64,000 nucleotides of DNA from Dictyostelium discoideum (taxonomy: Eukaryota). Of the stretch, positions 4,181-31,999 are shown piece by piece. Below the pieces are notes generated by a model. That model was not told where the DNA came from, did not search any database, and worked only from the letters and a program-made list of their open reading frames with translations. Each line of letters begins with the position of its first letter. Position 1 is the first letter of the stretch. Both the position numbers and the translations under genes were made by a program. Where the stretch lies: assembly GCA_000004695.1 (NCBI GenBank), contig CM000154.2, forward strand, positions 1,184,001-1,248,000. The letters run 5' to 3'.

Positions 4181-4309
4181 TTAATTTTTATTTTTATTTC
4201 TTAAAGCAAGAAACATATCAAACTCATCGATAGAGGTTTCATCAATAACTGCTTTGTTGTTATTGTTATTATTTATAATATTACCAGAATTATTTAAGGG
4301 AGGTAATGG

Positions 4310-4369
<60 letters not shown>

Positions 4370-5898: not shown

Positions 5899-5983
<85 letters not shown>

Positions 5984-7739: not shown

Positions 7740-7770
<31 letters not shown>

Positions 7771-8296: not shown

Positions 8297-8335
<39 letters not shown>

Positions 8336-9059
8336 TTTATACATACATCATGTAATGAAGATTTATCAGTTGAAACTGGTCTTTTTAAAGTATATGATAC
8401 AGGTAAATTTGTTGGTTTTTTATCAGAGATGAAAGGATTGTCATAAATGTAAACAGTAAAGGAGTCACCTGGTGCTGGTATAACTGATAGGAGTGAGGCG
8501 GCTAAGAAATTATGAATCTCGTCTATTGAAACACGATAACGAGTTTCCAATATTTCCAACATTGATCCAAATGTGCTTGACCATGCATGATGACTTATTA
8601 TGCATAAACATTCCAATATTTTATTACCACCGCTACCATCGGGTTGTTGAGGTTGTTGAGTTAAAATACGTTTTGTAAAACCAAACTGTTGTTTACCTTC
8701 TCTATCTGTTAATACAAATGTAAACATACTATCTGTAACTCTAGTACTAGTACCACTGTATTGAATATATGTTTTATCTATTTCTTCAGGAAAACAAAAC
8801 AATGGTACATTTGGATCGACTGTATCTGGTGGATATATATCTTTAACATATGGTACTATCGATTGTTGTACTCCACCATTTGCTCCATCTTTTTCAACTA
8901 ATAAATTAATAAACAATTAATAATCAAACTTCTACAAATATTACTTATTATTATTATTATTATTGTGGCTACGTTGTTGTGGTTACTAAAATAATATATT
9001 AACTTACCCTCCTTTAAAGAAACTAATAGAAATTGATCAAATAATAGTTTTTTTGACAT
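4181..9059 (-). CDS. DENN-domain protein (uDENN, cDENN and dDENN in the N-terminal part) followed by a ~1000-aa Asn/Ser/Gln-rich low-complexity tail. Five exons: 9059..9008, 8897..8347, 8231..7823, 7732..7569, 7471..4181.
   Basis: The encoded core reads LLFERRVIIYSENINRVSKFINAIVSLLDPFAWQHIFIPILP...FVDLDKDQVLPLPE. Upstream it reads FCFPEEIDKTY...FTFVLTDREGKQQFGFTKR. All donors are of the GTAAGT type (GTAAGTT, GTATGT, GTAGGT, GTAAGTT), all acceptors are AG, and all phases are consistent (1,0,1,0). Exon 1 encodes MSKKLLFDQFLLVSLKE. Exon lengths sum to whole codons. Confidence 0.85.
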
Positions 9060-9220
9060 GCCAAGTTAAATAAACTATTACAAATAATAAATATTTAATT
9101 TAATAAATATTTATAATTGTATTTATAACCTTGGCTCAGTATTTATTTATAAATTATAATGGTATTTATGTTTTATGTGTAGTTTTTTTATTCTTTTTTT
9201 TTTTCTTTGTTTATTTCTTT

Positions 9221-9300
9221 CTTTCTTTATTTCTTTCTTTCTTTATTTCTTTCTTTCTTTCTTTCTTTATTTATTTATTTATTTATTTATTCTCTTTTTT
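9221..9300. repeat. (TTTC)n/(TTTA)n tetranucleotide repeat block in the DENN-gene upstream spacer
   Basis: ctttctttatttctttctttctttatttctttctttctttctttctttatttatttatttatttatttattc, read directly. Confidence 0.9.
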
Positions 9301-10945
9301 TTTTTTTTTTTTTATTATTCTTTGGTATAGTTTTTAATAGTGTGTGTAGTAATAGTATATAATAATAATAATAAATAATAATAATAATATAGTAAAAAAG
9401 GAGAGCGTGAAAGTTTTTACTATAAAATTAATTTATTAATTAAAAAAATTAATATTGTTTGTTATTGTGCTTATTTTTAGGTTTTTTTTTTTTTTTTTAT
9501 TTTATTTTATTTAAATTTGTCTTTTTTTCCTTTTTTTTTGTTTTGTTTTTGTTTATCTCCTTATTTATTTTAATTATTTATTATCGGAAATAAAAAAAAA
9601 TAATATAAATAGATTTTTATTATTTATATATTGTATAAAAATATTTGTACATATAAGTTGAGGTGTGTGTATGTTTTTGCGAATTTTATAAATACAAAGA
9701 AAAAAATAAAAAATAAAAATTTTGCTTTGTGTTACGAATGGGTGTATTTTGAGTTGAATGTGTAATAGATTCAAAAAATAAATTTTAAAAAAAAAAAATT
9801 TTCAAAAAAATATTAAAAATAAAAATAAAAAAACAATAAAAAAAAAAAATAATAATAATAATAACAATATGACAAAAAGTGATGGGGTTTTTGATTTCTT
9901 TTTTTTTCTTTTTTTTTTTAATGGCGTTGGAGAAAAAAAAAAAAAATTAAAAAAAAAAAAAATAAAAAAATAAAAAAAGGATTTTTTCATTTTTTTTTAA
10001 TTTTTTTTTATTTAAAAAAAAAAAAAAATATATATAAATAAAAATAAAAATAATAAAAAAAAAATAAAGTTAAAATAAGAAAATTTGGATACTACATTTA
10101 AATTTCCAGGGAAGTTAAAACTTTTTTTTTTTTGGGAATTAATTTAATTTAAAAATTTTTAACCTTTATAAAAAAAAATGAAATGATAAAAAAAATTTAT
10201 ATCCAATAGTCTAAAAATAAAAAAAAATTGTTAGTATAATTGAGAATTCTACCCATAAAAATTTTTTATGTTGGGATTAAATTTTTAAAAATAGATTAAA
10301 AAAAAAACCAAAAAAAAAAAAAAAAAAAAAAAAAAACAGAAAGTAAAAAAAAAAAAAATTAAACAAAATTAAACAAAATTAAACAGAGAAAAATTCCTGG
10401 TTGAATTTTTTTTTTTTTTTTTTTTCATTGGGTGGCACCAAAGTCGTTCCATAAAATATCATGTCACAAAAAAAAAAAAAAAAAAAAAAAAAAATCAAAA
10501 AAAAAATCAAAAAATAAAATAAAAACAAAAATCAAAAATTAAGATTGTAAGATTAAAATCAAATGAATAATAAATAAAATTTATTAAATAAAACAAATAT
10601 TTAGTAACCCCGTTTTATATGTGGTATTTATTTTAAAAATAGATTTTTTTTTTAAAAAATAAAAAAAAAAAAAAAAAAAAAAAAGTTAAGAAAATCTCTA
10701 TAAAAAGAAAAAATTGAAATCTGATAATTTAATTAATAACAAAAAATTAGTATAGTTTATTAAATAAAAAAAAAAAAAATAAAATTAAATAAAATAAAAT
10801 TAAAACATAATATAATTTTATAATTATTTTATTTTATTTTATTTTAATACATTGTTTATAACTTGTTTATTTTTTTAATTTAATTTTATTTTGAGATATG
10901 AATATTTTTAAAAAAGATAATTATTCATTCAATATTATCATATAT

Positions 10946-13900
10946 TTAATCAGTAGTATCAGAGGCAGATTGGTAGAGTGGATTTTCAGCGGCAGATGCA
11001 GATTGTTCATAAAGTGGATTAGAGCTAACACCATCACCAAGGAAAGCGGCTTCACTAAAGAAAGTATCAGTTGGTGGTGCAGCTTTTCTTAATAATCTCC
11101 AAGCTGCGGCAGCAATTAAAGCAGTACCAGCGGCAGCACCAGCAATAGCACCTGTTAAAACGGTCTTATTGTCATTGGTTTGAGTGGTGGTTTCTGCTTC
11201 TTCAAATGTGACATCAACATAACCAGTTGCATTCATATGTGATTGAGCTCTAATGGCTGATGGTGCATTGTAACCTAAATCATCAACAAAGAGTTTAAGA
11301 CGATAGTTACCAGCAGTTACAGCATTGACAGTAATTGTTTGAATTGATTCATTGAGAGCAGATTTAGTATCGAGACATGAAATAGATGCAAGTGAAGTGT
11401 GGAGTTCACAATTTTGCATTCTTTTGAGTGAGATTTTAATATCTTCAAGTGATGCAACATTTTCATCATTTTCACCAACAATTGAAACTACAATTGAAAC
11501 ATTATTGCTTTTACCGGAATCTGGATCATCAAATTGAACATTTTCAACTGAAAGGGCTAACTTGGTAGTGGTGGAATAGGTTTTATTTCCGGCAAGAACA
11601 AATGGTGGAATGTTATATCTGTTAACGTTGATAACTGCTGTTAAGGTTGGTGAATCGAGACCACCATTATCTGTCATGAAAAATGGAATACGTACATAGC
11701 TATTACCAGATGAATCCGGGACAGGTGAATATACAACATAGTAATAGCCATCACTACTTTGCTCGACAGTTGTATGGTTACGATCAATAATAGAGCCTTT
11801 TAAGTCTGGTACAGTTTCATCTTTGGTATATAAAGTACCACGAAGTGCTGTGGTGACTGTTGAAAGTAATGGAGTGACTTGATCAACATCAACATCACTA
11901 CCAGTGTATTTGATTAAAACGGATGTATTGATATTCATATTGACAATATAGGTTGAGTCAAATAATACCTCACCATTATCTTTGGAAGTGTCATCTAAAA
12001 CCTTGTAACTAATTAATTGGATTGTTGGTGGTTGATTGACATGAATAACATTGACGGTGATAGTGTAAAGTTCAGAGTAAAGATCACCATCAAACAATTT
12101 GAATTCAATAAAATCGAAATCATTACCATATTCATTATGTGGTGGCATGTATGCAAAATTGTAAGAGGTTGAACCAGTTTGTGAATTTGGATAGGATGTA
12201 ATTTCTGTATCCATAGTACCTTCGCTACCCATGCTATGGGCAATTGATAAAGTACCTCTACCAGAGAATTTCAAAACTTGAATATTAACTTCAGAACCAC
12301 CATTTCCAACTTTACCTTGAACGTTTAATGGATAACGAGTGTTTTGTAAAACATCAATTACATCGGCTCCGGTGTAAACTGGTGGATTTCTTGGTCTGAC
12401 ACTAAAGGTAACTACGTCTGAATCTGATACAAGACCTTGTTGATCAACAACAGAGTATGGAATTGAATCTAATGGACCAATGTTATCAATGGTATTCCAA
12501 TTGGAAAGACCCGCATTTGGTTTGTATGAAAGAGCATCTAATTCGTAAGTTTCTTCACCAATTAATTTTGATGTAAGAACAACATTACCATTCAAAAGTT
12601 GACCATTGGCTGGGAGAGCATAAATCTTAGCTTTGAGGTCTGATGGCGATTCAATATCAGTACCATTGAATGTGAATGGTTCGGTTGTATCTTGATCGAG
12701 TTCAACTTGAATACCTTTTGTAGTTGGTGGAGTGTTAATATAGGTAAATTGGACAAAACCAGTTACATTACCAGTTGATAATACACCATATGGAGTGGTT
12801 AATTTAGAATCATCTTTACAGCTAATTATAAAGGAATCAGAGAAACTACTGAATGGAGTTGGTGAAATTTTAGATGCATCCAATAATTTGAAACTATAAC
12901 TATTGCTTGAGAGCGATTTTGGAAGGGTGGTAATTAATTCATTTTCTGAATCGTACATACTGATTTGCTTTGGAGCTGCTTGAACTGAACATAATACATT
13001 ATCACCATCAAAATCATAGGTAACCAATGTTTGAGTTTCACCAGCACCACTTTGAGATGTGAATGAGTAGGAATTGACTGTTAAAGTTGGTTTATGATTA
13101 ATTGGGTTAACAGTGACGGTTGTACTTTCAACTGATGACGTTTCTTTGAAAGTATCCATAACTTGATATGAATAACTATCAGTACCCTTGAAACCAGGAT
13201 TTGGTCTATAGTAATGAGTGAATGGTGCGTTTCCTTGAGTGGCAACGTTGTTACCATTTTGGACAGTAACTAAAATACCATTTGATGGTGGAGTGGTAAT
13301 AATAGCAATTAAATTATTAACATTTGGTGGATTGTAATCATCGATATCAGCATCGGTACCAGTTACAACATGTGCATCAGAATCTAAATAATCTTGATAA
13401 ACACTGTAATCTTGAATTTTAGTTACAACTGGTGCAACATTGGCACGATCTCCAACAATATTTACAACAACAGAGACAGTGTTTGATTCTAAACCTTCAT
13501 CATCAGTTGATGTGAATGAAATGGATGCATAATTTGAAATTGCGGAAGGTTCTCCATTGGTGAAACAAATAAGTTTATTGGCTTTTGTTGAAGAGTATGA
13601 GATACCAGAGAATTGATCTTTAAGAGAAATAATGGTGCTATCAGATGAACCAGAAGTACATGAACAATCATTAGTTGAACAGGTGTAGAAATTACCATTA
13701 TTACCATTTTTAATTGCAGTAATGGTGAATAATGCTTTTGTGGAATCTGAATCAGTTGATACCAAAGTTAATGAAACAGAACCTCTTGGAATTACTGAAA
13801 TTGGTGATGTTGATGATGAAACTGGTGCTACATTTGCATGTTGAATCTTGAAAGAAACTGAACAAGAAGCTTGTGAGAATGCATTTGATGTATCAATAGC

Positions 13901-16821
13901 TCTAAATTCTAATGTAACAGTGGCATCATTTTTTGGATTAACAGTTTGAGTGAAAATAACACTATCTCCAGTTGTAATTTTAGTTGATGAAGTAATAGAA
14001 GCACCTTTGTAAGTGAATGTACCGTAGGCAGTTAAATCAGTTGGTTTAGTAAATTGGAGGAATGGTGAGGCGTCTTCAAAATCAGTTGCAGTCATACTGA
14101 ATGTTGATTGGGTATTTAAGGTTGTTGTGATTGTTGATGAAATTGATGAACATTCTGGTAATTGATTTACTTTGTTGATGGTGATTGAAATTGTTGCATA
14201 GGTATTACTTTCGACACAACCATCAAAAGCAACAAATCTAATAGTATTTGAGGCTAAATAATTTTCGAACGGTGTATAGGTGAAAATTTCAGAGGCTGCA
14301 TAATAATTTGATTGTTGTTTTGAAACATCTTTACCATTGCTATCGGTAATAACACCAGCATTAGCTGTTAAGAATGTAGTGAATTTGAATTGTAAAATAT
14401 TTGCATCTGGATCAGTACCTGTTAATTTGAAAGTGGCTAATGAATTTTGATTGACAGAGAATGAACCTGAAGTTGCAACTGGTGGACGATTGTAATTGAT
14501 TGAAATATCAGTTTGACCATAACCCATTGCAGAAATTGTAGCAACTGGTGAAACAATTGTTGTACCTGATGGAAGTGATAATTTAAGACCATTGACAGTT
14601 TGTTGAGTTGATGAAGATGATGAAACTGTAACAGTTGATGGGACACTTGAAACAAATGAAGAACCAGTTGCAGTTGGATCAGATTTATAAACGATTTTGG
14701 ATAAAACATTCTTTACACCAGTATTAGCTTTAGCAGACCAATCACTAGCTGATGTTCCTGAAGCGGTAACAACACTACCAAAACCAGCTGAAGTGAGAGC
14801 TGAATTCCAATTAGTCATAGATGAGGCACCAAAACTAACGACCACTGGTACAATTGATTTTCCAATGAATTTATTTGTGAATGCAGTGATTTGTGCTGAA
14901 CTAGATGAATGATCACTATCGGTAATGATAACAATAACTTTGAATGAACCAGAATTCCAACCAACTGAAGCACTTGCAGCATCAGTAGCAGCCAAGAGTG
15001 AATTTCCATTAGAAGTGGTTGAATAAGTTGCTGGTTTATAAAGTCCAATGGCTGCAGCAATTGGACTACCCATAACTTGTGATGGACTAAATGAAATTGG
15101 TGATGGGGTGTAATCAGAGAAATAACCAATACCAAATTGAGCGGTTTCACAAATATTTTCAATGTTTGAAACAAATGTTGACATACCAGATTTAATATAA
15201 CCAAAGGCAGTAGTTGAAGCAAGATTGGCATCAACTAAAACGTAAACATCGAGATTATTAATTGGGTTTGGAATACTAACAATAGTTGGTACTTCATAGT
15301 TTGGTGTACTTGTGAGATAAACTTGAACTTTGGTTGGATTAACAAATGATGGATTACTGTATGAGATTGAGGTGTTGCTATTTGATAAATCTTTACAACT
15401 TTGAGATGATGAAATACTGCAATCGGCACCAGTCCAACCATTAGAACATAAACATTTACCATCACCATTAATACCACTATTTGGAACACCATTTACACAA
15501 GGTGGAACGGCAACACAATTTTCACCATAATAACCATCTTTACATTCAAAACATTTAGATGCTGGATCCCAATTATCAACACATTTACAAACACCACTCT
15601 CTGTATAACCACCATTACCACAATCTGGTTTAGCCACTAAAATTGTAAAAGAACGAACCGATGATGTTAAACCAGTTGAATCCGAGCAAACAAGAGAAAC
15701 AACATATGAACCGGTATTTGCAGTTGTTGGTGTCCATGTAATGGTTGTATTGGAGGTGGCACCTGTAACAGGAGTTTTGGTAGTGACACCAACTGGAAGA
15801 TTTGCAGTTTGAATGGTTGTTGATCTTCCAGACATAATAGTTTTACAAGAGAAAGTTAAACTTGTAGAGGCACCAATTGGGAATAATTTTGTATCACCAT
15901 CATCTGGAGTTGGTGGAGAGACAAAATCTGGTGGGTAATTACTAGTAGTACAAGTATCGATTGTGGTTGAACCACTGTTTGTGCAACCTTTACATTGAGA
16001 GTTTTGATTACATGCTGTACCAGCGTTTGAACATGTTGGATCACAAGTACCAGGTTCAGCAACTGATTGAAGAATGAAATCCACAACAATGTAGGCACCT
16101 CTTGAATCTAAAATATAAATTTGAGTTGAATAAAGACCAATTTGAGTTGGAAGGAAATAACAGTTACCTTTGGAATCAATTGTCATACCACTTGGTTGAG
16201 TCATTGTATAAACTTTTGAAAAGGAGAAAGTGAGTGCTGATGAGTCTGCATTTTGAACATTTTGATCGGATGCAATAACACGGAAGTTATTGTTTTTATT
16301 TGCAACTACTTGAACGATTGGAATCATACCAGATACTGGTGACCAATTTACCATTGACAATTCATTTTTATTATCGATTTGTACACTTGTTGTAATATTC
16401 CATGATGCATCTTTATTATTTAAAAGAGAACTAATTCTACAACAACTTGTGAAAATGGCGGTATATTCTCTAATTGTTCCAGAGTTTTGAGCTGGATAAG
16501 CTTTGGTTGTCGTGAAAGTACCTGTGAACCAATTATTTTTAACATCAAAATCTGTAACTGTAACAGAGACTGTTACTGATCCAACACCACTTCCAAAATT
16601 TAATGTACCAACATTAACTAAATTTCCAACCTTAATACTTGATGTTGATGAATAGAAAAAGGTTGTTCTATATGCAAAGTTTGATGTGAATTTGATGGTT
16701 CTATAATCTGTTGTTGGTTGCCAACTAATTGTACCAAAACGGAAATGTGATGCTTTGGAAAAAAAAAAATAATAAAAAAAAAATTTAAAATTAATATTTT
16801 TTTTTCACCTTTTCTGTTTAA

Positions 16822-16852
<31 letters not shown>

Positions 16853-16961
16853 TTTATTTGGGAAATAATAAAAAAAAAAAAAAAAAAAAACATTATTACT
16901 TACCATCAGTTAATATAAAAAGTGAAGCTATTAAAATAAATAGGTAAAATAATTTATTCAT
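10946..16961 (-). CDS. Sib-family (similar to integrin beta) adhesion receptor, paralog 1 (A/C-like), ~1955 aa. Exon 1 is 16961..16904 (signal peptide); intron 16903..16753; exon 2 is 16752..10946.
   Basis: Signal peptide MNKLFYLFILIASLFILTD. Cys-rich EGF-like repeats (CKCVDNWDPASKCFECKDGYYGENC...). A VWA-like region, then long Ig-like/cadherin-like repeats. A single TM helix (LTGAIAGAAAGTALIAAAAW). The cytoplasmic tail RLLRKAAPPTDTFF...NPLYEQSASAAENPLYQSASDTTD carries two NPxY motifs, as described for Dictyostelium Sib proteins (talin-binding, integrin-beta-like). Confidence 0.9.
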
Positions 16962-17314
16962 TTTGTTAAAAAATTTTATTAATTATTAATTTATTTATTT
17001 AATAAAGTTAAAATAAAATTTAAATTAAAAAAAATAAAAAAAATAAAAAAAATCCAGAAACTAAACCTGGCCAAAGAAATTTATTCTTTGTTTTTTAAAA
17101 ATACAGTGTGGTAATAATAAAATAGAAAATAGTATAAATGATTAAAAAAAACTTTTTTTTTTTTTTACTTTTTTTTTTTATTTTATTTTATTTTTTTTTT
17201 TTACTTTTTTCTATTTTATTTTATTTTATTTTTTTTTATTTTTTTTTATTTTTTTTTTTGAGTAACCATAAAAACGGATCTGTCAAATTTTTGTTAAAAA
17301 GTGTCAATTCGTTG

Positions 17315-17331
17315 GAAAAAAATCTAGATTT
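17315..17331. promoter_or_regulatory. Candidate cis-element GAAAAAAATCTAGATTT. It contains the perfect 12-bp palindrome AAATCTAGATTT and lies ~360 bp upstream of the paralog-1 ATG.
   Basis: The identical 17-mer recurs at 24890-24906, upstream of paralog 2. It sits inside a locally GC-richer island (17270-17350) in an otherwise >85% AT spacer. Confidence 0.35.
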
Positions 17332-17737
17332 CGTGAATATTTTAGATTTGCGCAAAAAAAAAATTGGTCCAAACAGTTTAAATTAATTTATTTTTTTTTT
17401 AATTTTTTTTTCATTTTTTTTTCATTTTTTTTTCATTTTTTTCATTTTTTTTTCATTTTTTTTTATTTTTTTCATTTTTTAAAAGATATTTTTTTTTTTT
17501 TTTTAAAAATAAAACACTTTGCCAAATGATGGGCGAAAATAAAAAATTTAAAATAAAAAAAAAAAAAAGGCTAAAATTGGATTGTGAATTTTGTGATATG
17601 GAACCATTTAAGTACTTTTTTGTGATATTTAACAACCTTTTACAAAAAAAAAAATAAAAAAAAAAATAAATATTAAAATAGTTTTAAATGAAGATAAAAG
17701 GGAATTTCATTGTTGTTATCAATTTTTTTTTTTTTTT

Positions 17738-17741
17738 AAAA

Positions 17742-17780
<39 letters not shown>

Positions 17781-17845
17781 ATATATAAATAAATAAATAA
17801 ATAAATAAATAGATAAATAAATAAATAAATAAATAAATAAAATTT
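17738..17845. repeat. (AAAT)n tetranucleotide microsatellite
   Basis: About 25 tandem AAAT units with a few interruptions, read directly from the sequence. Confidence 0.95.
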
Positions 17846-17886
17846 TTTTCAAAATAAATAAATTAAATAAAATAAATTAAAATTTG

Positions 17887-17960
<74 letters not shown>
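17887..17960. repeat. Poly(A) homopolymer, ~74 nt
   Basis: An uninterrupted A run in the spacer between sib paralogs 1 and 2. Confidence 0.95.
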
Positions 17961-17962
<2 letters not shown>

Positions 17963-18241
17963 AGGTCTGGTCAATTTCGCCTCATTCAATTCTTTGGAAT
18001 ATTTTTTTTTTTTTTTTATTTTTTTAAAATAATTTTAGTGTTTTTTTTACACTGTTATTATATTGATATTATAAATTATTATTTAAATAAATATAAATAT
18101 TTTATTATTATTATTTTATAATAATTAATATTTATTTAAATTAATTTATTAAATAAAAAATAAAAAATAAAAAATAAAATAATAATAATTTATTTTTTAA
18201 TTTATAAAATTATTTGTTTTTTTATTTATTTTTTTTTTTTT

Positions 18242-21200
18242 TTAATCATCGGCACCTTCATAAATTCTTGATACATATGATGTTTCAGATTTTTCGTAAA
18301 TTGGACTACTTGAAACATCACCCATAAAAGCACCTTCATCAAAGAAAGTATCAGTTGGTGGGGATGATCTTTTTATCATTTTCCATAAACCAATTACAAG
18401 TAATGCTGCACCAGCAGAAGCACCAGCAATTGCGCCTGATAAAACTGTTTTATTGTCGGTATTTTGGGTGGTAGCAATTGGGTCATTAATTATAATATTC
18501 ACATATCCAGTTGCATTTAAATGTGATTCAGCTCTAACTGTTGATGGTGCACTATAGCCCAAATCATCAATGAATAATTTTAGACGATATTTTCCACTAA
18601 TTGAACCAATGACTGAGATTGTTGATATTGATGCATTAAGAGATTTCTTTGATCCAATACATGTGATAAGGGCAAGATTTAGATTTGGGTTACATTTGGG
18701 AGTGGCTTGAGTAAAGGATAATTTAATAATGGAAAGTGGTAAAACTTCATCACCATCATTATCATCAACAATTGATACAATTAATGAAATATTATTATTA
18801 ACTGAATCTGGATCATCCAATGTTATATTTGTAATTGAAATGGTTAGATTAACTTTACCTACAAAAGTGTTTGAATTTGATCCAATGTAGATTTTTGGTT
18901 GAAGGTTAACAGAGTTTACATTTATAATTACAGTGGAAGTTTGTGACACAACTCCTTTTTCATCGATAACATTAAATGGAACACGAGCATAATTATCACC
19001 AGTTGTACCTTTAGTTGGTATGAAAATTACATACCAATAGCCATCTTCATTTAGTGGAATTAATTGAGATGTATGGTTGATTTCTCTTCCTAAATAGTCT
19101 GAGGAGTTATCATCAAATGAATAAATTAAACCACGAAGTGGAAGATTTGAAACTAAAGCAACTAAAGGGACTGTTTGGTTATCTATATCACTACCATAAA
19201 TTTTAATTAGTACAGAATCATTAACATTCATATTAATTGTTGAACCATCAATTTGAATTTCTTTTTCAAATTGATTTAAAATTCTATAACTTATTAATTC
19301 AGTGGCTGGTGGTTGATTCACATGAATAACATTAACTGTAATATTATAAATTTTAGAGATAATATCATTATCAAATAAAATAAATTGAATTTGATCAAAG
19401 TTTGAACCAAATTGATTTCTTGGTGGATTATATGCAAAATTGTAGGATGTTGAACCAAGTTGTTGGCTTGGGTACTCTGTTATTAGTTTATCAAAGAAAC
19501 CTTCTTTACCCATACTATGGGAAATTGATAAATTACCTCTACCACTGAAACTTAAAACTCGTATACTAACAGATAAACCGCCTCCACCAAGTTCTCCCTC
19601 AATTGTTAATGGGAAACGAGTATTTTGTAATACACTAATATCAGAGTCACCAAGGTAAATTGGTGGGTTTCTAGATCTAACTTGGAATGATATTGTTGAA
19701 GAAGGAGATAAAAGACCTTGTGGATCGACGATTGAGTATGAAATTCTATCCAATGGACCTAAATGATCCACTGTATCCCAATTTGATTGACCTGGTAAAG
19801 GTGTATATGTTAATTCATCCAAACCAAAAGTATTGTCTCCACCAATCAATTCTTTTGTCAAAACCACATTGCTATCAATGGATTTGGAAAGTTTACCATT
19901 GATTGGTAGAGAGTACAATAAAACTTTTAATAGCTTTTCATTGGATTCAATATCAGAACCTTCAAAAGAAAATGCAATGAATGAATCTTGTGAAAGTTTA
20001 ACTGAACTAATATTAGTTTTTGGTGGAGTGTTTATGTAATAGTATTGAACATTACCTATTACATCACCTGTTGACAATACACCTTTTGGTGTTGTTTTTT
20101 CACTATCATCAACACAGTTAATGCTAAAGGTACTTAAAACATTCGAAAATGGGGTTGGTGTAATGATTGAAGGGTCCAACAATTTAAAACTATAGGCATT
20201 ATTTGGTAACACCATTGGCACTGATTTTATTTGCACACCTTTGTCATCATACATAAGGATTTGTTTTGGAAGGGATATTACTGAGCAAATTACATTATCA
20301 CCATCTTGGTCACTGGTATTTAAAGTTTCTATAACCCCATCACCACTCTCTGATGTAAATTTATAAACATCAATCAAAACATTTGGTTTATGATTAATTG
20401 GTTTGATAGTAATAGTTGTAGATTCAATTGATGATTTTGCATTAAATGTGTCAATAACTTGATATGAATAACTATCAGTACCAGCGTACCCTGGATTTGG
20501 TCTATAATAATGAGTGAAAGGTGCATTTCCTTGAATGGCTATAGAACTACCATTTTGGACAGTAACTAAAATACCATTCGATGGTGGATTTGTAATTATA
20601 GCAATTAAATTATTAGCATTTTGTGGATTGTAATCATCGATATCAGCATCGGTACCAGTTACAACATGTGCATCAGAATCTAAATAATCTTGATAAACAC
20701 TGTAATCTTGAATTTTATTTACGACTGGCGCAACATTAGTACGATAACCAACAATATTAACTATTACAGTGGCCAAATTTGATTCTAAACCTTCATCATC
20801 AGTTGATGTGAATGATATGAATGCATAGTTTGGAACTGCAGAAGGTTCTGAATTGGTGAAACAAATTGGAAGACTGGCTTGATTTTTGGCGTATTGAATC
20901 TGTGAATACTTTGTATTGTCAGTAATATCGATACGATCATTTGATCCAGCAACACAAGAACAGCTATTATCAGTGCATGAATAGAATGTACCTGTTTTAC
21001 CAGCATTAACCTTTTTTATGGTAAATATAGCAGATTTTGAATCTATATCAGTTGATAATAAAGATAGGGGATTCCCGATACTTCTTGGAATAGTAACAGA
21101 TGTTCCATCATTTGAAATTGGTGCTTCATTCGTATGTGTAATATTAATAGTTTGGGTACATAAATTTGAAAATAAACCAGATGAATCTTTTGATTTGAAA

Positions 21201-24185
21201 GTCAAAGGAACTAAAAGATTTAATGGATTCTTTGTTTGTTTGAAAAGTATTTTCACACTCTTTTTAATTATTGTATCTATAGTTACTTTAGCACCAATAT
21301 ATGTTAGTTGTCCATATTGTTCTAAGGATGCTAGCTCTGAGCTCACAATAAACTGTGCATTAAGAATTAATAGTTGATCATCATCTTCAAAATCAGTAGC
21401 AGTAAATGAAAAATCAACCGTTTTTTCAAATTCAGATATAACAATAGCTGAACTACATTCAGGTGGTTGATTCACCTTATTGATAGAGAATGAAACTTTT
21501 GCACTTGAATCACTAGTTAAACAACCATCATCAGCAATAAAACTAATATACAATGATTTCAAATAGTTTTTATAAGGTGAAAATGTAAATTTTTCACTTC
21601 CTGCGTATAATTCATCCTTTTGAGTTGAAACATCAATACCTTTACTTGTTTTAATTAAACCTTCTGTACTCGATAAAAATGATGTAAATTTAAAGGTCAA
21701 AATATTTCTATCTGGATCAGAGCCTTCCAATTGAAATATAGCATCAGAGTTTTGATTACAAGAAATTCCAAATGGATTTGGTGTTGGTGGATGATTGTAG
21801 TTTGTTTTAATATCGATACAACCATATCCTATAGTACACACTCTAAGTGATGGATTTATACTACTATTGTAATTGATTGGTAAAGATAAAGAAAGACCAG
21901 ACAAAGTTTTGACAACTTCAATATCTGCATCTATAGGTAAATTTTCTGGAATTGATTTTAAAAATGCAAGACCACCAGAGTTATCATTAACTTTAAATAT
22001 AATATTCTGTAACACTCCATTACCTAATACTGAGCTTGATGTTTCTTTGAATGCTGTCTTTACAAAATTTTTCCAACCTTGAGCATCAGATGATAATTTA
22101 TAAGCTCCAAAACCACATTGATATAATGTTGAATTCCAATTACTTAGAGAAACATTAATTCCAATAACTACAGGAGCAATTGACTTTTCAATGAATGCAT
22201 TTTTAAATTCATCTATTTCTGTTTGGATGGGACTTAAAGGAAGATCTGTTCTTGGTATAATGATCATAGACTTAAAGGCATTCGTTCTCCAACCTAGTGG
22301 AGTCTTTGCTGCTTTGGTTGCAGCCGATAAAGATTTTCCTGTAATTGTATGATTATAGCCACTCCATTTTTTATTTTCTAGTGATGTTACAATAGAGTCT
22401 GATGGAATTTTAGCTAAATCAGCGAATAAACCATTTTCATCAATAATGCCCAACCCAAATGATACACTTTCAGGAGATAGTTCCAAAATTTTCGTTTTGG
22501 CGTCATTCAATTGAGATAGAATATTGTTGAATTCATTTTGAGTGTTTTGATTAATATCAATCAAAAAGTAAACATCAATTAATTTATTTTTCTCTGGAAT
22601 TTTAATATTGACTTGTATTTGATACTTTTGATTATTTGCCAAATATACTTGAATGCCTACTGGGTTAATATATGATTGCTCCATAATTGAAGAACTAACA
22701 ACACCACTTTTTAATGACCCACATGATTGACTGTTTGAAATTGAACAATCATCGCCAATCCAACCATTGTTACAATAGCATTTACCATCACCCAAAATTC
22801 CACTATTGGAAACACCATTGACACAAAGTGGCACAGCAATACACTTTTCTCCATAATATCCTTTTGAACAATCTAAACAATCACTTTCAGAGGTAAAATT
22901 CTTTGGACAAACACAAATACCTTTATCTCTAAATCCCCCATTTGAACAATCAGGTTTTTCTTTTAGAAAAAATTTAAAAATTAATAAAATTAAATTTATA
23001 AATAAAATAATTAAAAAAAGAAAACTTACTAATAATAATTTCTATTGAAGTTGTAATTTTTATCAAAGAGTCGGTACATACTATATATTTAACATATGTT
23101 CCATAATCTTGAAAAGATGTCGGGAACCATAATAAATTTATTGTTGATTTTGGTCCAATTTCTAAAATTTTTGTTATGAAACCAATTGGAAAACCGACAG
23201 GTTGAATAGTTGTGTTTAAACCAATTGCATCTGTTGTACAAGAAACATTAAAACCTTCATTTTGCTCACCAATAACAAATGTTTGTGTTTGATTGGGCTT
23301 TGGAGTTGGTGGGTAAATAAAAATAGGCTTTGTTGATAAACAAGCGTCTTGTGTTTTATTATATACTAAATTGCCACAATTAATACAGTCACTGTTTTTT
23401 GTACAAATTTCACCACTGTTATTGCACTGATGATGACAAAACCCATTTTGTATCTCTGATTGGAGGATAAAGTCAAGAGTTATATACGCACCATTTTTAT
23501 CTGTAATTATTACCTTTGCGCAATATAAACCAACAGATGATGGCATGAAATATACCATACCAGTGTTTTTATCAAGTGTCATCCCATCAGGCTTTGCTTC
23601 GCCAAATGTAAACACAAGATTAGAATACTCTCCAGGTCTGAGATGTTGATCAGAGGCAGGGATATTGAAATTATTATTTCTACCATATGTTACTGGATAG
23701 ATAGGTACCATTCCTGATACTGGTGACCAATTAATTTTATCAAGTGAATTACTATTATCAATTTGTACCAATGATTTTATTGTAAAATCACCATCTTTTT
23801 CATTCAAAAGAGTACTGATTCTACAGCACAACGAATAGAAGGCAGTATAGTTAGCAGTTTTTCCTACTTCCAATGTTGGGTATGTGTGGGAAAATACTGA
23901 AGTGCCAGTAAACCAATCATCTTTAGAGTCAACCGTTGTTAGTATTAATTGATAAGTACTCACAACATTATCTCCAAAATTGAAAGAAATTTTTATAAAA
24001 TCATTTTTTTGGGGCAAATTGGAGAACCAGGCACTGGTTCTGAAGCCAAGGTCAAGAGTAAATTGTATTTCATTGTATTGAGTAGTTGGTTGCCATTTAA
24101 ATGTACCAAACCTAATATGAGAAGCTTTTATTATTAAAAAAATTATAATAATATAAGAATTTTTGTTTTTTTTTTTTGATTTTTA

Positions 24186-24231
<46 letters not shown>

Positions 24232-24299
24232 ATTTTACCGTTTGAGAAAGTTATCAAAAAATAAATAAAAAATAATAATTTTACAACAAAACTAAACAT
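18242..24299 (-). CDS. Sib-family adhesion receptor, paralog 2 (divergent), ~1958 aa. Three exons: 24299..24239 (signal peptide), 24124..23030, 22959..18242.
   Basis: Signal peptide [20 protein letters not shown], phase-1 GTAAAA donor. Exon 2 begins [15 protein letters not shown]..., parallel to the other paralogs. There is an extra 70-nt intron (GTAAGT...AAAAG) inside the EGF-like region. Same overall architecture as paralog 1 (EGF-like, VWA-like, repeats, [21 protein letters not shown]). The tail reads ...[21 protein letters not shown]; both NPxY motifs are replaced by SPIY and SRIY. Confidence 0.85.
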
Positions 24300-25764: not shown

Positions 25765-28700
25765 TTAGTCAGTATTATCAGAGGCAGATTGATAAAGTGG
25801 ATTTTCAGCGGCAGATGCAGATTGTTCGTAAAGTGGATTGGCATTAACACCGTCACCAAGGAAAGCGGCTTCACTAAAGAAAGTATCAGTTGGTGGTGCA
25901 GCTTTTCTTAATAATTTCCAAGCAGCAGCAGCAATTAAAGCAGTACCAGCGGCAGCACCAGCAATAGCACCTGTTAAAACAGTCTTATTATTAGTGGTTT
26001 GTGTGGTAGCTTCTGGTGCATTAACTTTAACATCAACATAACCAGTTGCATTTAAATGTGATTGAGCTCTAATGGCTGATGGTGCATTGTAACCTAAATC
26101 ATCAACAAAGAGTTTAAGACGATAGTCACCAGCAGTTGATGCGATAACAGAAATTGAAACAATTGAACTGTTGAGTGGTTTCTTTGGTCCAATACATGTG
26201 ATTGAAGCTAAAGTTTGATGATATTCACACATTGGTGATTGAGTGAATGAAAGTTTAATATCTTTGAGTGATGCAACTTTGTCATCTTTTTGACCAACTA
26301 TTGAAACAACAATTGAAACATTGTTAGTTGTAGAATCTGGATCATCAAATTGTACACCCATTACAGAGGCAGTTAAATTGGTTTGAGTTGTGTAGTTTTT
26401 GTTACCAATGATTACAAATGGTGCAATATTGACAGTATTAACATTGATTAACACTCCGACGATTGGTGAATTAAGACCGCCATTGTCAGTCATAATAAAT
26501 GTAATACGTGCATAACTTTCACCAGAGGTTTTTTTTGATGGTACAAATACGACATAGTAAAAACCATCAGCATTTTGTTCAACATTTGAAGAGTTACGAG
26601 TGATTGGCGCACCTGATGAATTTGAAGCAGTTGGATTATAAGCGTAAAGCGAACCTCGAAGTGGGAAATTTGGAATCATTGAAATTAATGGAGTAACTTG
26701 ATCAACATCAATATCATTACCAGAATATTTAATTAGGACAGTGGTATTAATATTCATATTAATTAATGAAGTATTTTCAAATAAGACTTCACTTGAAACG
26801 CCATCTAAAATCTTGTAACTAACTAATTCGATTGTTGGTGGTTGGTTGACATGAATAACATTAACAGTGACTGTATAAAGTTCAGAGTAAAGATCACCAT
26901 CAAAGAGTTTGAAGTAAATGAAATCAAAATCATTACCATATTTATTACGTGGTGGCATGTATGCATAGTTGTATGAAGTTGAACCAGATTGTTGATTTGG
27001 ATATGATGTAATTTCTGAATCCATAGTACCTTCGCTACCCATATTGTGAGCGATACTTAAAGTACCATTGTTAGTGAATCCAATAACTTGGATATTAACT
27101 TCAGAACCACCACCACCAATTCTACTAGTGATAGTTAATGGATAACGAGTGTTTTGTAAAACATCAATTACTCTTGCACCAGTATAAACTGGTGGATTTC
27201 TTGGTCTAACACTAAAGTAAACGATATCAGAATCTGATGTAAGACCTTGTTGATCAATGACAGTGTATGAAATTGAATCGAGTGGACTTTGTTGATCAAT
27301 GGTATTCCAATTTGAAAGACCTGCATTTGGTTTGTATGAAAGTGCATTAAGGTTGTATGTTTCAGAAGCAATATTTGTTGTAGTAAGAGCAACACCAGTA
27401 GCGTTAATTAAAAGTTGACCATTGATTGGTAATGAAAGGATTTTAACTTTAATATCATCTTTTGGTGTTTCAATATCAGAACCATTAAAAGTGAATACTT
27501 TGACTGTATCTTGATCAAGTTGAACAGTGCCACCTTGAGTAGTTGGTGGAGTATTAATATAAGTATATTGAACATTAGCAGTTACTACACCAGTTGATAA
27601 TGTACCAAATGGAATAGTCTTTGTAGTAACATCAGTACATTTGACAGCGAATGAACTTGAAACACTTGTGAATGGAGTTGGAGTAATTTTTGATGGATCT
27701 AATAACTTGAAACTGTATGAAGTACCAGAGAGAACAGTTGGAACTGATTCAATTAAATTACCATCTGAATCATACATACCAATTTGACTTGGAATGGAAA
27801 CAACTGAACAAATAACACTATCACCATCTGGATCACTGGTGACCAAGTCTTGAGTTTCACCATCACCACTTTGAGATGTGAAAGAATATGAACTGACAAC
27901 AACACTTGGCTTGTGATTAATTGGGTTAACAGTGACGGTGGTACTTTCAATTGATGACCCAGCTTTGAAAGTGTCAACAACTTGATATGAATAACTATCA
28001 GTACCCTTGAAACCAGGATTTGGTCTATAGTAATGAGTGAATGGAGCTTTTCCTTGAGTGGCAGCAATGCTACCATTTTGAAGAGTAACTAAAATACCAT
28101 TGGATGGTGGAGTGGTAATTATAGCAATTAAATTATTAACATTTGGTGGATTGTAATCATCGATATCAGCATCGGTACCAGTTACAACATGTGCATCAGA
28201 ATCTAAATAATCTTGATAAACACTGTAACCTTGAATTTTAGTTACAACTGGTGCAACATTAGTACGATTACCAACAATATTAACGACTACATTGACAGAA
28301 TCTGATTCTAAACCTTGGTTATCAGTTGATGTGAATGAAATGGATGCATAATTTGAAATTGCGGAAGGTTCTCCATTGGTGAAACAAATAAGTTTGTTGG
28401 CTACTTTGTTGGTATAAGAAATTGATGTGTAGGTTGTAGTTGTAGAAATAGAGGTATATATGTTGGTTTGAGTAGAATTACATGTACAATCATTGGTTGA
28501 ACAAGTGTAGAAATCACCCTTTGCGCCCTTGTTAACGGATTTAATGGTGAATTTTGCAGATGTTGAATCTGAATCAGTTGATACCAAAGTTAATGAAACA
28601 GAACCTCTTGGAATTACTGAAATTGGTGATGTTGATGATGAAACTGGTTTAATATTTGTATGAACAAGTTTAACAGTTAATGTACAAGTACTTGTAGAGA

Positions 28701-31502
28701 TTGCACCAACACTATCGACAGCTTGGAATGATACTGGAACATCAATAGCATTGGTTGGATTAACGGTTTGGGTAAATGTGATTTCAGAACTAGTTGGAAT
28801 TTTAGATGTTGAAGTAACAGCAACACCACCAAAAGTTAATGTACCATATGCAGTTAAATCGGTTGGACTAGTGAATTGAATGAATGGTGTGGCATCTTCA
28901 AAATCGGAAGCACTCAATACAAATTTGTTAGCAACATTCAAAGTTGGTGAAATTGTTTTTTGTTGACAAGTTGGTAATTGATTGACTTTGTTGATGGTGA
29001 TTGAAACGGTTGCAGATGTAGTACTATTAAGACAACCATCATTGGCAACGAAACTAACACTGATTGGTAATAAATAGTTAATGGCTGGAGTGAAGGTGAA
29101 AGTCTCGGTTGAATCGTAATATTTACTTTTTTGGGTTGAAACATCTTTATTATTACTATCGGTAATAACACCAACGTCACTTGTTAAGAAGGTAGTGAAA
29201 GCAAAGGTTAAAATATTGAAATCTGGATCAGTACCTGTTAATTTAAAGGTAGCAAATGAATTTTGATTTACAGAGAATGCAGTTCCGGTTGGAGTTGGTG
29301 GACGATTGTAATTGATTGAAAAATCAGTTTGGCCAAAACCAATTGCTGAAACTGATGCAACTGGTGATACGATTGAGGTTGCTGATGGTTTGGTTAAAAC
29401 AAGACCACTAACGGTTTTAACGGTATCAGCGGTGGAAGATACAGCGACATCTGATGGTGTGGATTTAACGAATGAAGCGCCATTGGTTGTATTATCGGTT
29501 TTATAAACAACATTTGATAAAACACTCTTTAAACCAGCTACAGCTTTAGCAGAGATATCGATGGATGTAGCAGCAGAGACAGTGCTATAACCAAAATCAG
29601 CGGTTGAAATTGCTGAATTCCAATTTGGAATTGATGAGGCACCAAAACCAACAACAACTGGCGCAATTGAATTTGAAATGTAAGTATTGACGAAATTAGT
29701 TATAGCAGCAGAGTTTGAAGAATGATCTTTATCGGTAAGTACAACAATTGCTTTAAAGGAGCCAGAGTTCCAACCATTTGAGTTTGATGCAGCATTTGTT
29801 GCACCCAAAAGTGAATTACCACTTGAGGTTGAAGTATAAGATGAGACAGCATAACCATTGATAGTATTAACGATATTGCTACCAATGATTGAACCTGGAG
29901 CAAAATTGAAACCAGATGAAGAGGCATCACTGAAATAACCAATACCAAATTGAGTTGTTTCGCAAATACTCTTTGAAACCTCAGTGACAAATGTTGAAAT
30001 ACTTGATTGAACAACACCAAAGAGAGTTGATGAGGCGACATTGACATCGACTAAAACGAAAACGTCAATTTTTGTTAATTTTTGTGGAATGTTTAATGAT
30101 GTAGTTAAAGCGAAATCACTTTCGATATATAGTTGAACTTTGGTTGGATTGACAAAGAATGATGGAACAGAGGTGGAGAGGAGAATAGAATTTTTCAAAT
30201 CTTTACAACTTTGAGATAATGGAACATCACATTTATCACCACTGTAACCATTGATACACATACATTTACCATCACCTAAAATACCTTCATTTGGAATACC
30301 TTTATCGCATGGTGGGGTTGGATCACAATTTTGACCATAATAACCGGTACTACAATCGAAACAATTTGAAGTTGGATCCCATTTATCACCATCACATTTA
30401 CATTTACCAGTTGAAGGATCTTTATGACCATTACCACATTCTGGTTTAGCAATGAAAATTGTAAATGAACGAGATGATGATGTTAAACCATTTGAATCAT
30501 AACAAAAGATTGAAGTTACATAAACACCAACATTTGCAGCGACTGGAGTCCATGAAAGAATATTTTTAACTGTACCTTGACTTGAAGTTCCTTCTGCAAT
30601 GGCTGCACCAGCTGGTACATTAGCAGCTTGGATACCGACAGTTCTAGTTGTATAATCTGATTTACATGAGAGTGTGATACTATTTGGTTGACCAACAGTG
30701 AATGGAATTAATTGATTATCTTGTGGGGTTGGTGAAACAAAGTATGGTGGATAATTAGTTGTTGAACAAGTATTGCTAGTTGTTGAACCAGCGTTGGCAC
30801 AATTTTTACATTCTGAATTACCATTACATGTTGCACCACCATTGGAACAACTTGGATCACATTTACCTGGTTCAGTAATTGATTCTAAAATGAAATCGAC
30901 TACGGCATATGCTGGTGGAACGGCATCATCTGTGATATAAATTTGAGTAGAATAAAGACCAACTGAAGTTGGTAAGAAAAAAACATGACCAGTACTATTG
31001 ATTTTCATTCCAGATGGTTGGGTCATTGGATAAACGGTTGAGAAAGAGAATGAAAGTTTATCATCAACATTTGGGTCACTTGCAATAACACGGAAGTTAT
31101 TATTTTTGTTGGCAATAACTTGGACAATTGGTAACATACCTGATACTGGTGAATGATTTACTGATGGCCAATTTTTGTTATCAAGATAAACACTACTAGT
31201 AATGTTCCAATCAGCATCTTTATTATTGAGAAGTGTACTAATTCTACAACATGATGTAAACATGGCAAGATATTGTTTTGAGTTGTTTGGAGTTAAGGCA
31301 GTATAGGTTTTAGTAAAGATAAATTGACCAAAGAACCAATCATTCTTGGTATCAAAACTGGTCACAGATGCCCTAACTGATGTAGATGAACCATCACCAA
31401 AAGTTAAAGTACCAAGAGTAATTTTTTCTCCAATTACAATTGATGATGAGCTTGTTTTATAAAATGTAGTTCTAAATGCGAAATTTGTTGTAAATTTAAT
31501 AA

Positions 31503-31551
<49 letters not shown>

Positions 31552-31999
31552 AAAAAGAAAAAATTAGTAATTGAATAAAATAAATAAATAATAAGTTACT
31601 TACGTTATGTGCTGTTGTGGGACTCCATGAGATACTACCAAATCTGAAATGGGTGGCTAAAATAAAAAATTAAAAAAAAAAAAAAAATTGAAAAATAAAT
31701 AAAAAAAATGAAAATCGAAAAAAGGTCAGAAAAGTTTTAAAAAGTAATCGATTTTTAGTATTATTATTTTTATATTATTATTATTATTTATTAATATTTA
31801 TTATTATTATTTATTTATTATTTATGTATCTATCCATTTATTTTATTTATTTATTTTAATTTTATTATTTTATTATTATTATTATTTTTATTGTTATTTT
31901 AGTTTTTAATTTTTATTTTAATTTTTAATTTTAGATCTTACCTTCAGTGACACAAAATATTGCAAGTAATACAAATAAAAATTTGAATAAATTATTCAT
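25765..31999 (-). CDS. Sib-family adhesion receptor, paralog 3 (A/C-like), ~1903 aa. Three exons: 31999..31942 (signal peptide), 31655..31603, 31503..25765.
   Basis: Signal peptide MNNLFKFLFVLLAIFCVTE (GTAAGA donor). Mini-exon ATHFRFGSISWSPTTAHN. A 99-nt phase-0 intron (31602..31504) contains a 43-nt homopolymer. The tail ...NPLYEQSASAAENPLYQSASDNTD is about 93% identical at nucleotide level to paralog 1's tail. TM helix LTGAIAGAAAGTALIAAAAW. Confidence 0.9.
31506..31548. repeat. Poly(T) run of 43 nt (poly-A on the coding strand) inside the paralog-3 intron
   Basis: Read directly from the sequence. Confidence 0.95.

What the first reader, a model, noticed from the sequence alone, without database searches (positions are those of the whole stretch)
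18242..18420. Middle Sib paralog has lost both NPxY talin-binding motifs
Paralogs 1 and 3 end ...NPLYEQSASAAENPLYQSASD(T/N)TD. The middle paralog ends ...[23 protein letters not shown]. The spacing and the I/LYE core are retained, but the Asn-Pro of both NPxY motifs is replaced (SPIY, SRIY). The membrane-proximal PPTDTFF(S/D)E(A/G)AF motif is retained in all three. In integrins and in SibA the NPxY motifs mediate talin PTB/FERM binding. This copy may therefore be uncoupled from talin, or may act as a decoy or differently regulated adhesion molecule.
Basis: partly seen in the sequence, partly recalled or inferred. Interest (0 to 1): 0.55.

Follow-up and report, generated by a model that had tools for sequence, protein, structure and literature searches.

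The report
SibD tail: one motif strain-specific
The sequence is the known Dictyostelium adhesion gene sibD; its outer talin-type motif was lost long ago and has been conserved since, while the loss of the inner, talin-critical motif is a single-base variant found only in the laboratory reference type, so the gene is probably still talin-coupled and the finding is mostly ordinary.

Summary
On the minus strand the middle of three tandem Sib genes ends ...[23 protein letters not shown], while its neighbours end with two NPLY motifs.

The three genes are D. discoideum sibC, sibD and sibE. My sibD model matches UniProt Q54JA4 (DDB_G0288197) exactly.

- **Distal motif.** The distal NPxY is S[R/K]IY in every sibD I could fetch: six D. 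discoideum-complex assemblies, D. citrinum and D. firmibasis. It is an old loss that has since been conserved.
- **Proximal motif.** This is the motif reported to be essential for talin binding in SibA. It is intact NPIY in four other assemblies, D. citrinum and D. firmibasis. Only the window and one near-identical assembly carry SPIY, through one AAT->AGT change at window base 18306.
- **Gene integrity.** sibD is intact and under purifying selection (dN/dS 0.22-0.36). Its tail is more conserved than its ectodomain, its transcripts are reported, and no alternative 3' exon exists.
- **Talin binding.** Two secondary sources say all five Sib tails bind talin. SPxY tails occur naturally in related proteins, and talin binds an SPLH motif in PIPKI-gamma.

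Talin uncoupling is therefore unlikely. This is a known gene, and the only new point is a minor strain polymorphism.

The parts
18242..24299 (-). sibD gene (DDB_G0288197, SIBD_DICDI Q54JA4). Exons are 24299-24239, 24124-23030 and 22959-18242, encoding 1957 aa.
   Evidence: I built the gene model from the sequence with GT..AG introns of 114 and 70 nt. The product matches XP_636832.1 / Q54JA4 exactly. All five Pfam SIBA-E families hit it over their full length.
18383..18445 (-). sibD transmembrane segment [21 protein letters not shown], glycine-rich with GxxxG motifs
   Evidence: translation; 62% identical to SibC and SibE
18245..18382 (-). sibD cytosolic tail, 46 aa
   Evidence: Between strains and species the tail has pN/pS of 0.04-0.42. 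It is 74% identical to D. firmibasis SibD, against 59% for the ectodomain.
18326..18361 (-). Membrane-proximal [12 protein letters not shown] segment, conserved in all Sib tails
18296..18307 (-). Proximal motif SPIY. The Ser codon AGT occupies 18305-18307. The variable base is 18306 (C on the + strand, G on the coding strand). All other sibD sequences have AAT or AAC, giving NPIY.
18260..18271 (-). Distal motif SRIY (TCA AGA ATT TAT). The codons are identical in all D. discoideum-complex assemblies and in D. citrinum. D. firmibasis has SKIY.
10946..16961 (-). sibC gene (SIBC_DICDI Q54JA5, 1954 aa). Exons are 16961-16904 and 16752-10946. NPLY motifs lie at 11009-11020 and 10973-10984.
25765..31999 (-). 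Third paralogue, taken to be sibE because it is the remaining member of the array. My 1949-aa model is not identical to any database entry. NPLY motifs lie at 25828-25839 and 25792-25803.
   Evidence: Orthologues in other strains are annotated at 1946-1955 aa with SIBA-E Pfam families.
16962..18241 (-). Non-coding spacer between the sibD stop and the sibC start. It holds no alternative tail exon.
   Evidence: 10.5% G+C and no NPx[YF] in any frame.: AATAAA signals just after the stop.

Best explanation
The feature is the 3' end of sibD, the divergent middle gene of the sibE-sibD-sibC tandem array of Dictyostelium discoideum. SibD is an intact, transcribed type I membrane adhesion protein under selective constraint. 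Its tail carried one talin-type motif ancestrally, the proximal NPIY. The distal NPxY had already become S[R/K]IY before D. discoideum, D. citrinum and D. firmibasis separated, and it has been conserved in that form since. In the AX4-type haplotype of this window a single A->G transition (AAT->AGT, window 18306) changed NPIY to SPIY. Most likely the tail still docks the talin FERM/PTB-like F3 subdomain through the retained Pro-Ile-Tyr turn, the conserved upstream Phe-rich [12 protein letters not shown] segment, and its unchanged distance from the membrane. SibD would then remain a talin-coupled receptor, possibly with altered affinity in this strain. What is shown: the sequences, the gene model, the polymorphism and its polarity, the selective constraint, and the absence of another exon. 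What is taken from the literature: all Sib tails bind talin, only the proximal motif matters in SibA, talin F3 binds an SPLH motif, and sibD is transcribed. What is inferred: that SPIY itself binds talin.
For: Identity: the product matches Q54JA4 / DDB_G0288197 exactly, and Pfam SIBA-E_N, Ig_2nd, Ig_3rd, vWA_SIBA-E and Ig_SibA hit at E 1e-41 to 1e-57. Polarity of the proximal change: the codon is AAT or AAC in L001-L004, D. citrinum and D. firmibasis, and AGT only in the window and L005. Distal motif: it is S[RK]IY in all eight sequences. Orthology: D. firmibasis P0011 is 59% identical to SibD against 47% to SibC and SibE, and it sits directly upstream of the SibC orthologue. The D. citrinum copy is 80% identical and in the same position. 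Constraint: dN/dS is 0.22-0.36 for sibD against 0.17-0.28 for sibC. In the tail, the block [23 protein letters not shown] is invariant in L001-L004 and D. citrinum despite 2-6 synonymous differences from the window. The AX4-type branch shows no relaxation, with 31 synonymous and 14(+1) non-synonymous changes against 24:19 on the sister branch. Talin: all Sib A-E tails are said to bind talin, and only the proximal motif is essential in SibA. Precedents: PIPKI-gamma WVYSPLH binds talin F3 at 0.27 uM, and a beta3-SPLH chimera is pulled down by talin head (PMC4003243). Among 57 related tails, 7 cluster representatives have SPxY at exactly the proximal position, six of them with S[PA]xY at the distal position as well. 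Expression: sibD transcripts are strongly induced in chronic hypoxia (PMC12750705).
Against: The primary talin pull-down paper (Cornillon et al. 2006) is not in the library. I therefore do not know how strongly SibD bound, or that the SPIY allele was the one tested. That it was is only an inference, from my own knowledge that the laboratory strains share an origin. The Asn of NPxY normally stabilises the turn recognised by PTB-like domains. High-affinity SPLH binding in PIPKI-gamma depends on the Trp/Tyr just upstream, which SibD lacks (it has VSSSPIY). The organisms and function of the natural SPxY tails are unknown. [quoted passage not shown]
Confidence: 0.6

Rival explanations
1. One reading: with no NPxY left, SibD of this strain no longer binds talin. 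It would then act as an uncoupled or decoy adhesion molecule that engages ligands without linking to actin.
For: The window allele has neither N-P. The proximal NPxY is essential for SibA-talin binding. SibD is the most divergent paralogue in the ectodomain, transmembrane segment and tail, and it is not among the Sibs abundant in vegetative cells.
Against: Secondary sources state that all five Sib tails bind talin. The proximal loss is confined to one haplotype, and the gene elsewhere keeps NPIY under strong constraint. A decoy role would therefore be a strain peculiarity, not the gene's function. Pro, Ile/Leu and Tyr are all retained. SP-containing talin F3 ligands exist, as do SPxY Sib-like tails.
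Confidence: 0.2
2. The N->S change is a neutral or mildly deleterious drift allele in a weakly expressed, redundant paralogue. It would be either a natural polymorphism of the wild strain from which the laboratory strains were derived or a change fixed during laboratory culture. It would weaken talin binding somewhat and have no new function.
For: It is a single transition, one of about 15 derived amino-acid changes on this haplotype. About 5% of sibD codons differ at the protein level between strains (78 of 1570), so a hit at any one codon is not surprising. SibA and SibC carry the vegetative adhesion load.
Against: It is the only amino-acid change in the 31-residue tail core across the D. 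discoideum complex, at the most constrained residue of the family. The proximal position is N in 47 of 57 representatives. No functional data exist either way. This rival overlaps with the best explanation and differs only in the expected size of the effect.
Confidence: 0.15
3. Artefact: a sequencing error, a wrong gene end, or an unrecognised downstream exon that supplies an NPxY tail.
For: None found. The AT-rich genome is error-prone in homopolymers.
Against: The codon AGT is identical in a second assembly (L005). The annotated protein ends at the same stop in all strains and species. There is no coding potential, donor site or NPx[YF] frame downstream, and AATAAA follows the stop.
Confidence: 0.02

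Closest known systems
SibD itself (Integrin beta-like protein D, SIBD_DICDI Q54JA4, DDB_G0288197)
   Same: The 1957-aa sequence is identical. The feature is therefore this known, annotated protein.
   Different: Nothing differs in sequence. What is added here is that the SPIY form is specific to the AX4-type haplotype and that NPIY is ancestral.
SibA and SibC, the studied Dictyostelium Sib adhesion receptors
   Same: The domain set is the same (SIBA-E_N, two Ig-like domains, vWA-like, Ig_SibA), as are the glycine-rich transmembrane segment, the PPTDxFF segment and the two Y motifs 12 residues apart. Talin binding is reported for all of them.
   Different: SibA, SibB, SibC and SibE carry two NPxY motifs. 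SibD has one ancestrally and none in this window. SibD is only about 50% identical to SibC and SibE, while those two are 65% identical overall and 94% in the tail. SibD is not abundant in vegetative cells.
Integrin beta cytoplasmic tails (proximal NPxY binds talin F3, distal NxxY binds kindlin)
   Same: A type I membrane protein with a short tail, two Tyr motifs, and the proximal one used for talin.
   Different: Sibs are not canonical integrin beta homologues. Pro is dispensable at the distal integrin motif, whereas SibD's distal motif lacks the Asn as well.
PIPKI-gamma C-terminal talin-binding peptide WVYSPLHY
   Same: Ser-Pro stands in place of Asn-Pro in a peptide that binds talin F3 tightly. 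That serine (S650) is phosphorylated by proline-directed kinases, which blocks talin binding (PMC2171813 abstract).
   Different: SibD has no Trp/Tyr immediately upstream of SP, ends the motif in Tyr rather than His, and is a membrane receptor tail rather than a kinase C-terminus. No binding data exist for it.
Unnamed Sib-like proteins with SPLY/SPIY tails (P0086, P0093, P0106, P0116, P0120, P0122, P0142)
   Same: The tail layout is the same, with SPxY at the proximal position. Six of the seven have S[PA]xY at the distal position, and P0116 has NVLY there. These motif variants are therefore fixed in other lineages.
   Different: They come from metagenome and read-archive assemblies of unidentified organisms. 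They are only distantly related (E 1e-13 to 1e-21 against the C-terminal profile).

Membership tests
Sib family (Integrin beta-like proteins A-E, Dictyostelia) | N-terminal SIBA-E module, second and third Ig-like domains, vWA-like domain and Ig_SibA domain | tested here: met
   Pfam PF24907, PF24908, PF24910, PF24909 and PF24619 all hit over their full length, E 5e-41 to 3e-57
Sib family (Integrin beta-like proteins A-E, Dictyostelia) | Signal peptide, a single glycine-rich transmembrane segment with GxxxG, and a short cytosolic tail | tested here: met
   The N-terminus is [21 protein letters not shown] and the transmembrane segment is [21 protein letters not shown] (GAIAG, GASAG). The tail is 46 aa.
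Sib family (Integrin beta-like proteins A-E, Dictyostelia) | Two conserved NPxY motifs in the cytosolic tail | tested here: not met
   The window allele has SPIY and SRIY (0 of 2). Other sibD alleles and orthologues have NPIY and S[RK]IY (1 of 2). This motif is typical of the family but does not define it. Membership rests on the exact match to Q54JA4.
Sib family (Integrin beta-like proteins A-E, Dictyostelia) | The cytosolic domain binds talin A | not testable with these tools
   Reported for SibA-E in secondary sources. The primary paper is not held.
NPxY-type ligands of talin F3 / PTB domains | An Asn-Pro-x-Tyr/Phe turn motif | tested here: not met
   SPIY at 18296-18307 in this window. The feature is met (NPIY) in six other sibD sequences.
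NPxY-type ligands of talin F3 / PTB domains | Membrane-proximal position with hydrophobic or aromatic residues upstream of the motif | tested here: met
   The motif starts 26 residues after the transmembrane segment, the same register as other Sibs. Upstream lie FF and AF ([18 protein letters not shown]).
PIPKI-gamma-type SP-containing talin F3 ligands | W-V-Y-S-P-L-H: Ser-Pro preceded directly by Trp/Tyr | tested here: not met
   SibD reads D-V-S-S-S-P-I-Y, with no aromatic residue at -1 to -3. This is therefore only an analogy and not membership.

The most novel reading that the evidence does not exclude
The laboratory reference haplotype carries a derived Asn->Ser change in the only talin-type motif left in SibD. 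This creates a Ser-Pro site like the one in PIPKI-gamma, where proline-directed phosphorylation switches talin binding off. If so, SibD in AX4-type cells would be a phospho-regulated or weakened talin partner. Adhesion results from laboratory strains under conditions where sibD is induced (hypoxia, development) would then not represent wild D. discoideum.
Probability: 0.15. Interest if true: 0.45.

Novelty: already known. Interest (0 to 1): 0.25.

Why it matters
Sib proteins are the working model for integrin-independent, talin-mediated adhesion in amoebae. A family member truly uncoupled from talin would be a useful natural separation-of-function allele. The evidence here points the other way. 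SibD normally keeps the talin-critical motif, and the reference strain differs from it by one base.

There are two practical points. Motif-based statements about 'SibD' drawn from the AX4 reference do not hold for the species. The NPIY/SPIY pair is also a ready-made natural allele pair for testing how strictly amoebal talin needs the Asn of NPxY.

Tried and rejected
- **First protein search.** The search with the C-terminal 400 aa of the window's SibD returned no hit. A later search with the D. firmibasis orthologue worked. I treat the first as a tool limitation and not as absence of relatives.
- **Primary papers.** Cornillon et al. 2006 and 2008 are not in the library by PMC id or DOI. The talin-binding claim for SibD therefore rests on secondary statements.
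- **SibA tail sequence.** Table 1 of PMC4510845 is not held as text.
- **Alternative 3' exon or sequencing artefact.** Searched for and rejected.
- **Pseudogene or relaxed selection.** Rejected, because the reading frame is intact in all strains, dN/dS is 0.22-0.36, and the AX4-type branch shows no excess of non-synonymous changes.
- **Strain names.** I could not link the GCA_0548... assemblies to strain names. A preprint describing nanopore assemblies of nine strains, including two cryptic species, gives no accessions in its text. Whether L005 is a laboratory strain or a close wild isolate is therefore unknown.
- **Gene conversion by megablast.** Megablast found no >=88% tract between sibD and sibC/sibE. 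The per-window synonymous divergence did reveal one.
- **Structure prediction.** Not attempted. The tail is short and disordered, and complexes with talin cannot be submitted.

Full report
**1. What is in the window**

All the relevant genes lie on the minus strand.
- The two outer genes end ...PPTDTFFSEAAFLGDGV(SS/NA)NPLYEQSASAAENPLYQSASD(T/N)TD*.
- The middle gene ends ...[39 protein letters not shown].
- In the middle gene, SPIY is at 18296-18307, SRIY at 18260-18271, the 46-residue tail at 18245-18382 and the transmembrane segment at 18383-18445.

**2. Identity**

I built gene models from the sequence, each with a signal peptide, canonical GT..AG introns and one long 3' exon.
- The middle model has exons 24299-24239, 24124-23030 and 22959-18242 and encodes 1957 aa. 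It is residue-for-residue identical to XP_636832.1 / UniProt Q54JA4, 'Integrin beta-like protein D' (SIBD_DICDI, DDB_G0288197) of D. discoideum AX4.
- The model ending at 10946 is identical to SIBC_DICDI Q54JA5.
- The third gene is the remaining member of the array, taken to be sibE. My model for it is not identical to any database entry.
- All five Pfam families built on SibA-E hit SibD over their full length.

The 'middle Sib paralog' is thus a known, named, annotated protein.

**3. Is the tail really the end of the gene?**

The 1.28 kb between the sibD stop and the sibC start codon has 10.5% G+C. No frame there encodes NPx[YF], and the tail-coding region contains no GTAAGT-type donor. AATAAA signals follow the stop directly. 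Annotated orthologues in five other assemblies and two other species end at the same stop.

**4. Other strains and species**

The exact-sequence look-up exposed cluster members from other assemblies. I fetched the whole sibE-sibD-sibC locus from several sources:
- five D. discoideum-complex assemblies (L001-L005);
- D. firmibasis (L006);
- D. citrinum (L010);
- D. dimigraforme (L011).

L005 is 99.66% identical to the window over 26 kb, so it is the same strain type. The others are 90-94% identical.

The distal motif is TCA AGA ATT TAT (SRIY) in all six D. discoideum-complex sequences and in D. citrinum. In D. firmibasis it is TCA AAA ATT TAT (SKIY).

The proximal motif is NPIY, with codon AAT or AAC, in L001-L004, D. 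citrinum and D. firmibasis. It is SPIY, with codon AGT, only in the window and L005.

Orthology of the outgroup copies is supported by best identity and by position:
- D. firmibasis P0011 is 59% identical to SibD against 47% to SibC and SibE. It lies directly upstream of the SibC orthologue.
- The D. citrinum copy is 80% identical to SibD and lies between an E-like and a C-like gene.

By parsimony there were two separate events. The distal NPxY was lost before these three species diverged. The proximal Asn->Ser is a recent single A->G transition on the AX4-type haplotype (window base 18306). D. dimigraforme has no sibD within 10 kb upstream of its sibC-like gene.

**5. Is sibD decaying?**

No.
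- The reading frame is intact in every assembly.
- Pairwise dN/dS over about 1570 codons is 0.22-0.36. The value for sibC is 0.17-0.28.
- The tail is more conserved than the rest of the protein. It is 74% identical between D. discoideum and D. firmibasis, against 59% for the ectodomain.
- The block [23 protein letters not shown] is invariant in L001-L004 and D. citrinum, despite 2-6 synonymous differences from the window in the 46 tail codons.
- Tail pN/pS is 0.04-0.42.
- Changes polarised with outgroups give 31 synonymous to 14 (+1 for the tail) non-synonymous on the AX4-type branch, and 24:19 on the sister branch. There is no sign of relaxed constraint in the reference type.
- sibD transcripts are reported to be strongly induced in chronic hypoxia (PMC12750705).

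The degenerate distal segment is therefore a conserved feature specific to SibD and not erosion. Against SibC and SibE, the SibD tail is 46-48% identical, about the same as the whole protein at 50%. SibC and SibE tails are 94% identical to each other.

**6. Talin**

[quoted passage not shown] - A third paper repeats that it is the membrane-proximal site of SibA that interacts with talin (PMC4325847).

All three cite Cornillon et al. 2006, which I could not read. If these statements are accurate, the old distal loss is irrelevant to talin. The SibD tail, presumably cloned from a laboratory strain of the same descent, bound talin.

Two further observations make an SPxY tail plausible as a talin ligand.
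- Talin F3 binds the WVYSPLH peptide of PIPKI-gamma with sub-micromolar affinity, and a beta3 integrin carrying SPLH in place of NPLY is still pulled down by talin head (PMC4003243).
- I ran a profile search with the C-terminal 700 residues of SibC, SibD and SibE against 1.84 billion representative proteins. It found 57 tails with the same layout, in which the two Y motifs start at tail positions about 23 and 35.

Among those 57 tails:

| Position | NPx[YF] | SPxY | SAxY | Other |
|---|---|---|---|---|
| Proximal | 47 | 7 | 3 | 0 |
| Distal | 42 | 3 | 3 | 9 |

Six representatives combine SPxY at the proximal position with S[PA]xY at the distal one. Tails without any Asn-Pro are therefore a stable natural state in some lineage. 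The organisms are unidentified.

**7. Most likely mechanism**

SibD is a divergent, conditionally expressed Sib receptor. Its tail keeps the elements that matter for talin: the distance from the membrane, the [12 protein letters not shown] segment and a Pro-Ile-Tyr turn. In this strain it probably still docks talin F3 with SPIY, perhaps more weakly. The conserved TSYVS[R/K]IYE segment may serve another partner, but nothing here tests that.

I put 0.15 on 'weakened drift allele without consequence' and 0.02 on artefact.

A more speculative reading is that the new Ser-Pro is a proline-directed phosphorylation switch. PIPKI-gamma S650 works this way: its phosphorylation blocks talin binding (PMC2171813 abstract).

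**8. Comparison and novelty**

The gene, its sequence and (by report) its talin binding are already known, so I rate the finding 'already known'. What I did not find stated anywhere is that the SPIY form is peculiar to the reference-type haplotype. All other available D. discoideum-complex, D. citrinum and D. firmibasis sequences keep NPIY. This is a minor but usable point. It offers a natural allele pair for testing how strictly amoebal talin needs the Asn. It also warns against reading family motifs from AX4 alone.

**9. Limits**

- There is no binding, localisation or knockout data for SibD.
- The primary paper was not read.
- The strain names of the comparison assemblies are unknown.
- Only eight sibD sequences were compared.
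- Dating of the distal loss rests on three species.

Noticed in passing
window 20516-20815 (-), sibD residues 1101-1200, and the matching parts of sibC and sibE: Synonymous divergence between the three tandem paralogues drops to pS 0.16-0.24 in this 300-nt stretch, against 0.27-0.79 everywhere else. Protein identity of SibD to SibC is 87% here, but only 65% to the D. firmibasis SibD orthologue. This looks like an inter-paralogue gene-conversion tract. It does not reach the sibD tail.
   Followed up: partly
window about 9000-35000 compared with L003 and L004: The sibE-sibD-sibC locus differs by 6-7% in DNA (dS 0.07-0.10) between the AX4-type sequence and two assemblies labelled D. discoideum. 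A preprint gives about 0.3% average divergence among D. discoideum strains (10.1101/2025.10.22.684067). Either these strains are unusually distant or the sib locus carries deep haplotypes.
   Followed up: no
P0034 (Protostelium nocturnum), P0033 (Clastostelium recurvatum) and many unnamed metagenome proteins: The Sib C-terminal module also occurs outside Dictyostelia. It consists of the Ig_SibA region, a glycine-rich transmembrane segment and two NPxY-like motifs 12 residues apart. A preprint reported Sib proteins only in dictyostelids (10.1101/2020.04.29.069435).
   Followed up: partly
L006 (D. firmibasis) 1-23715; L011 (D. dimigraforme) 1-16494: Copy number at this locus varies. D. firmibasis has four tandem Sib genes (two E-like, D, C). 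D. dimigraforme has unrelated genes where sibD would be, directly upstream of its sibC-like gene.
   Followed up: partly
window 25765-31999 (-): My three-exon model of the third paralogue (1949 aa, introns 31941-31657 and 31603-31504) is not identical to any protein in the collection. The orthologues in other strains are annotated at 1946-1955 aa. The reference annotation probably uses a different 5' exon structure.
   Followed up: no
sibD residues about 481-773 (vWA-like domain), window about 20640-21520 (-): The vWA-like region is the most diverged part of SibD, at 27-40% identity to SibC and SibE in residues 501-700. For example, the IITDSDH segment of SibC reads IIPRTDL in SibD. Ligand binding may therefore differ as much as the tail does.
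   Followed up: no
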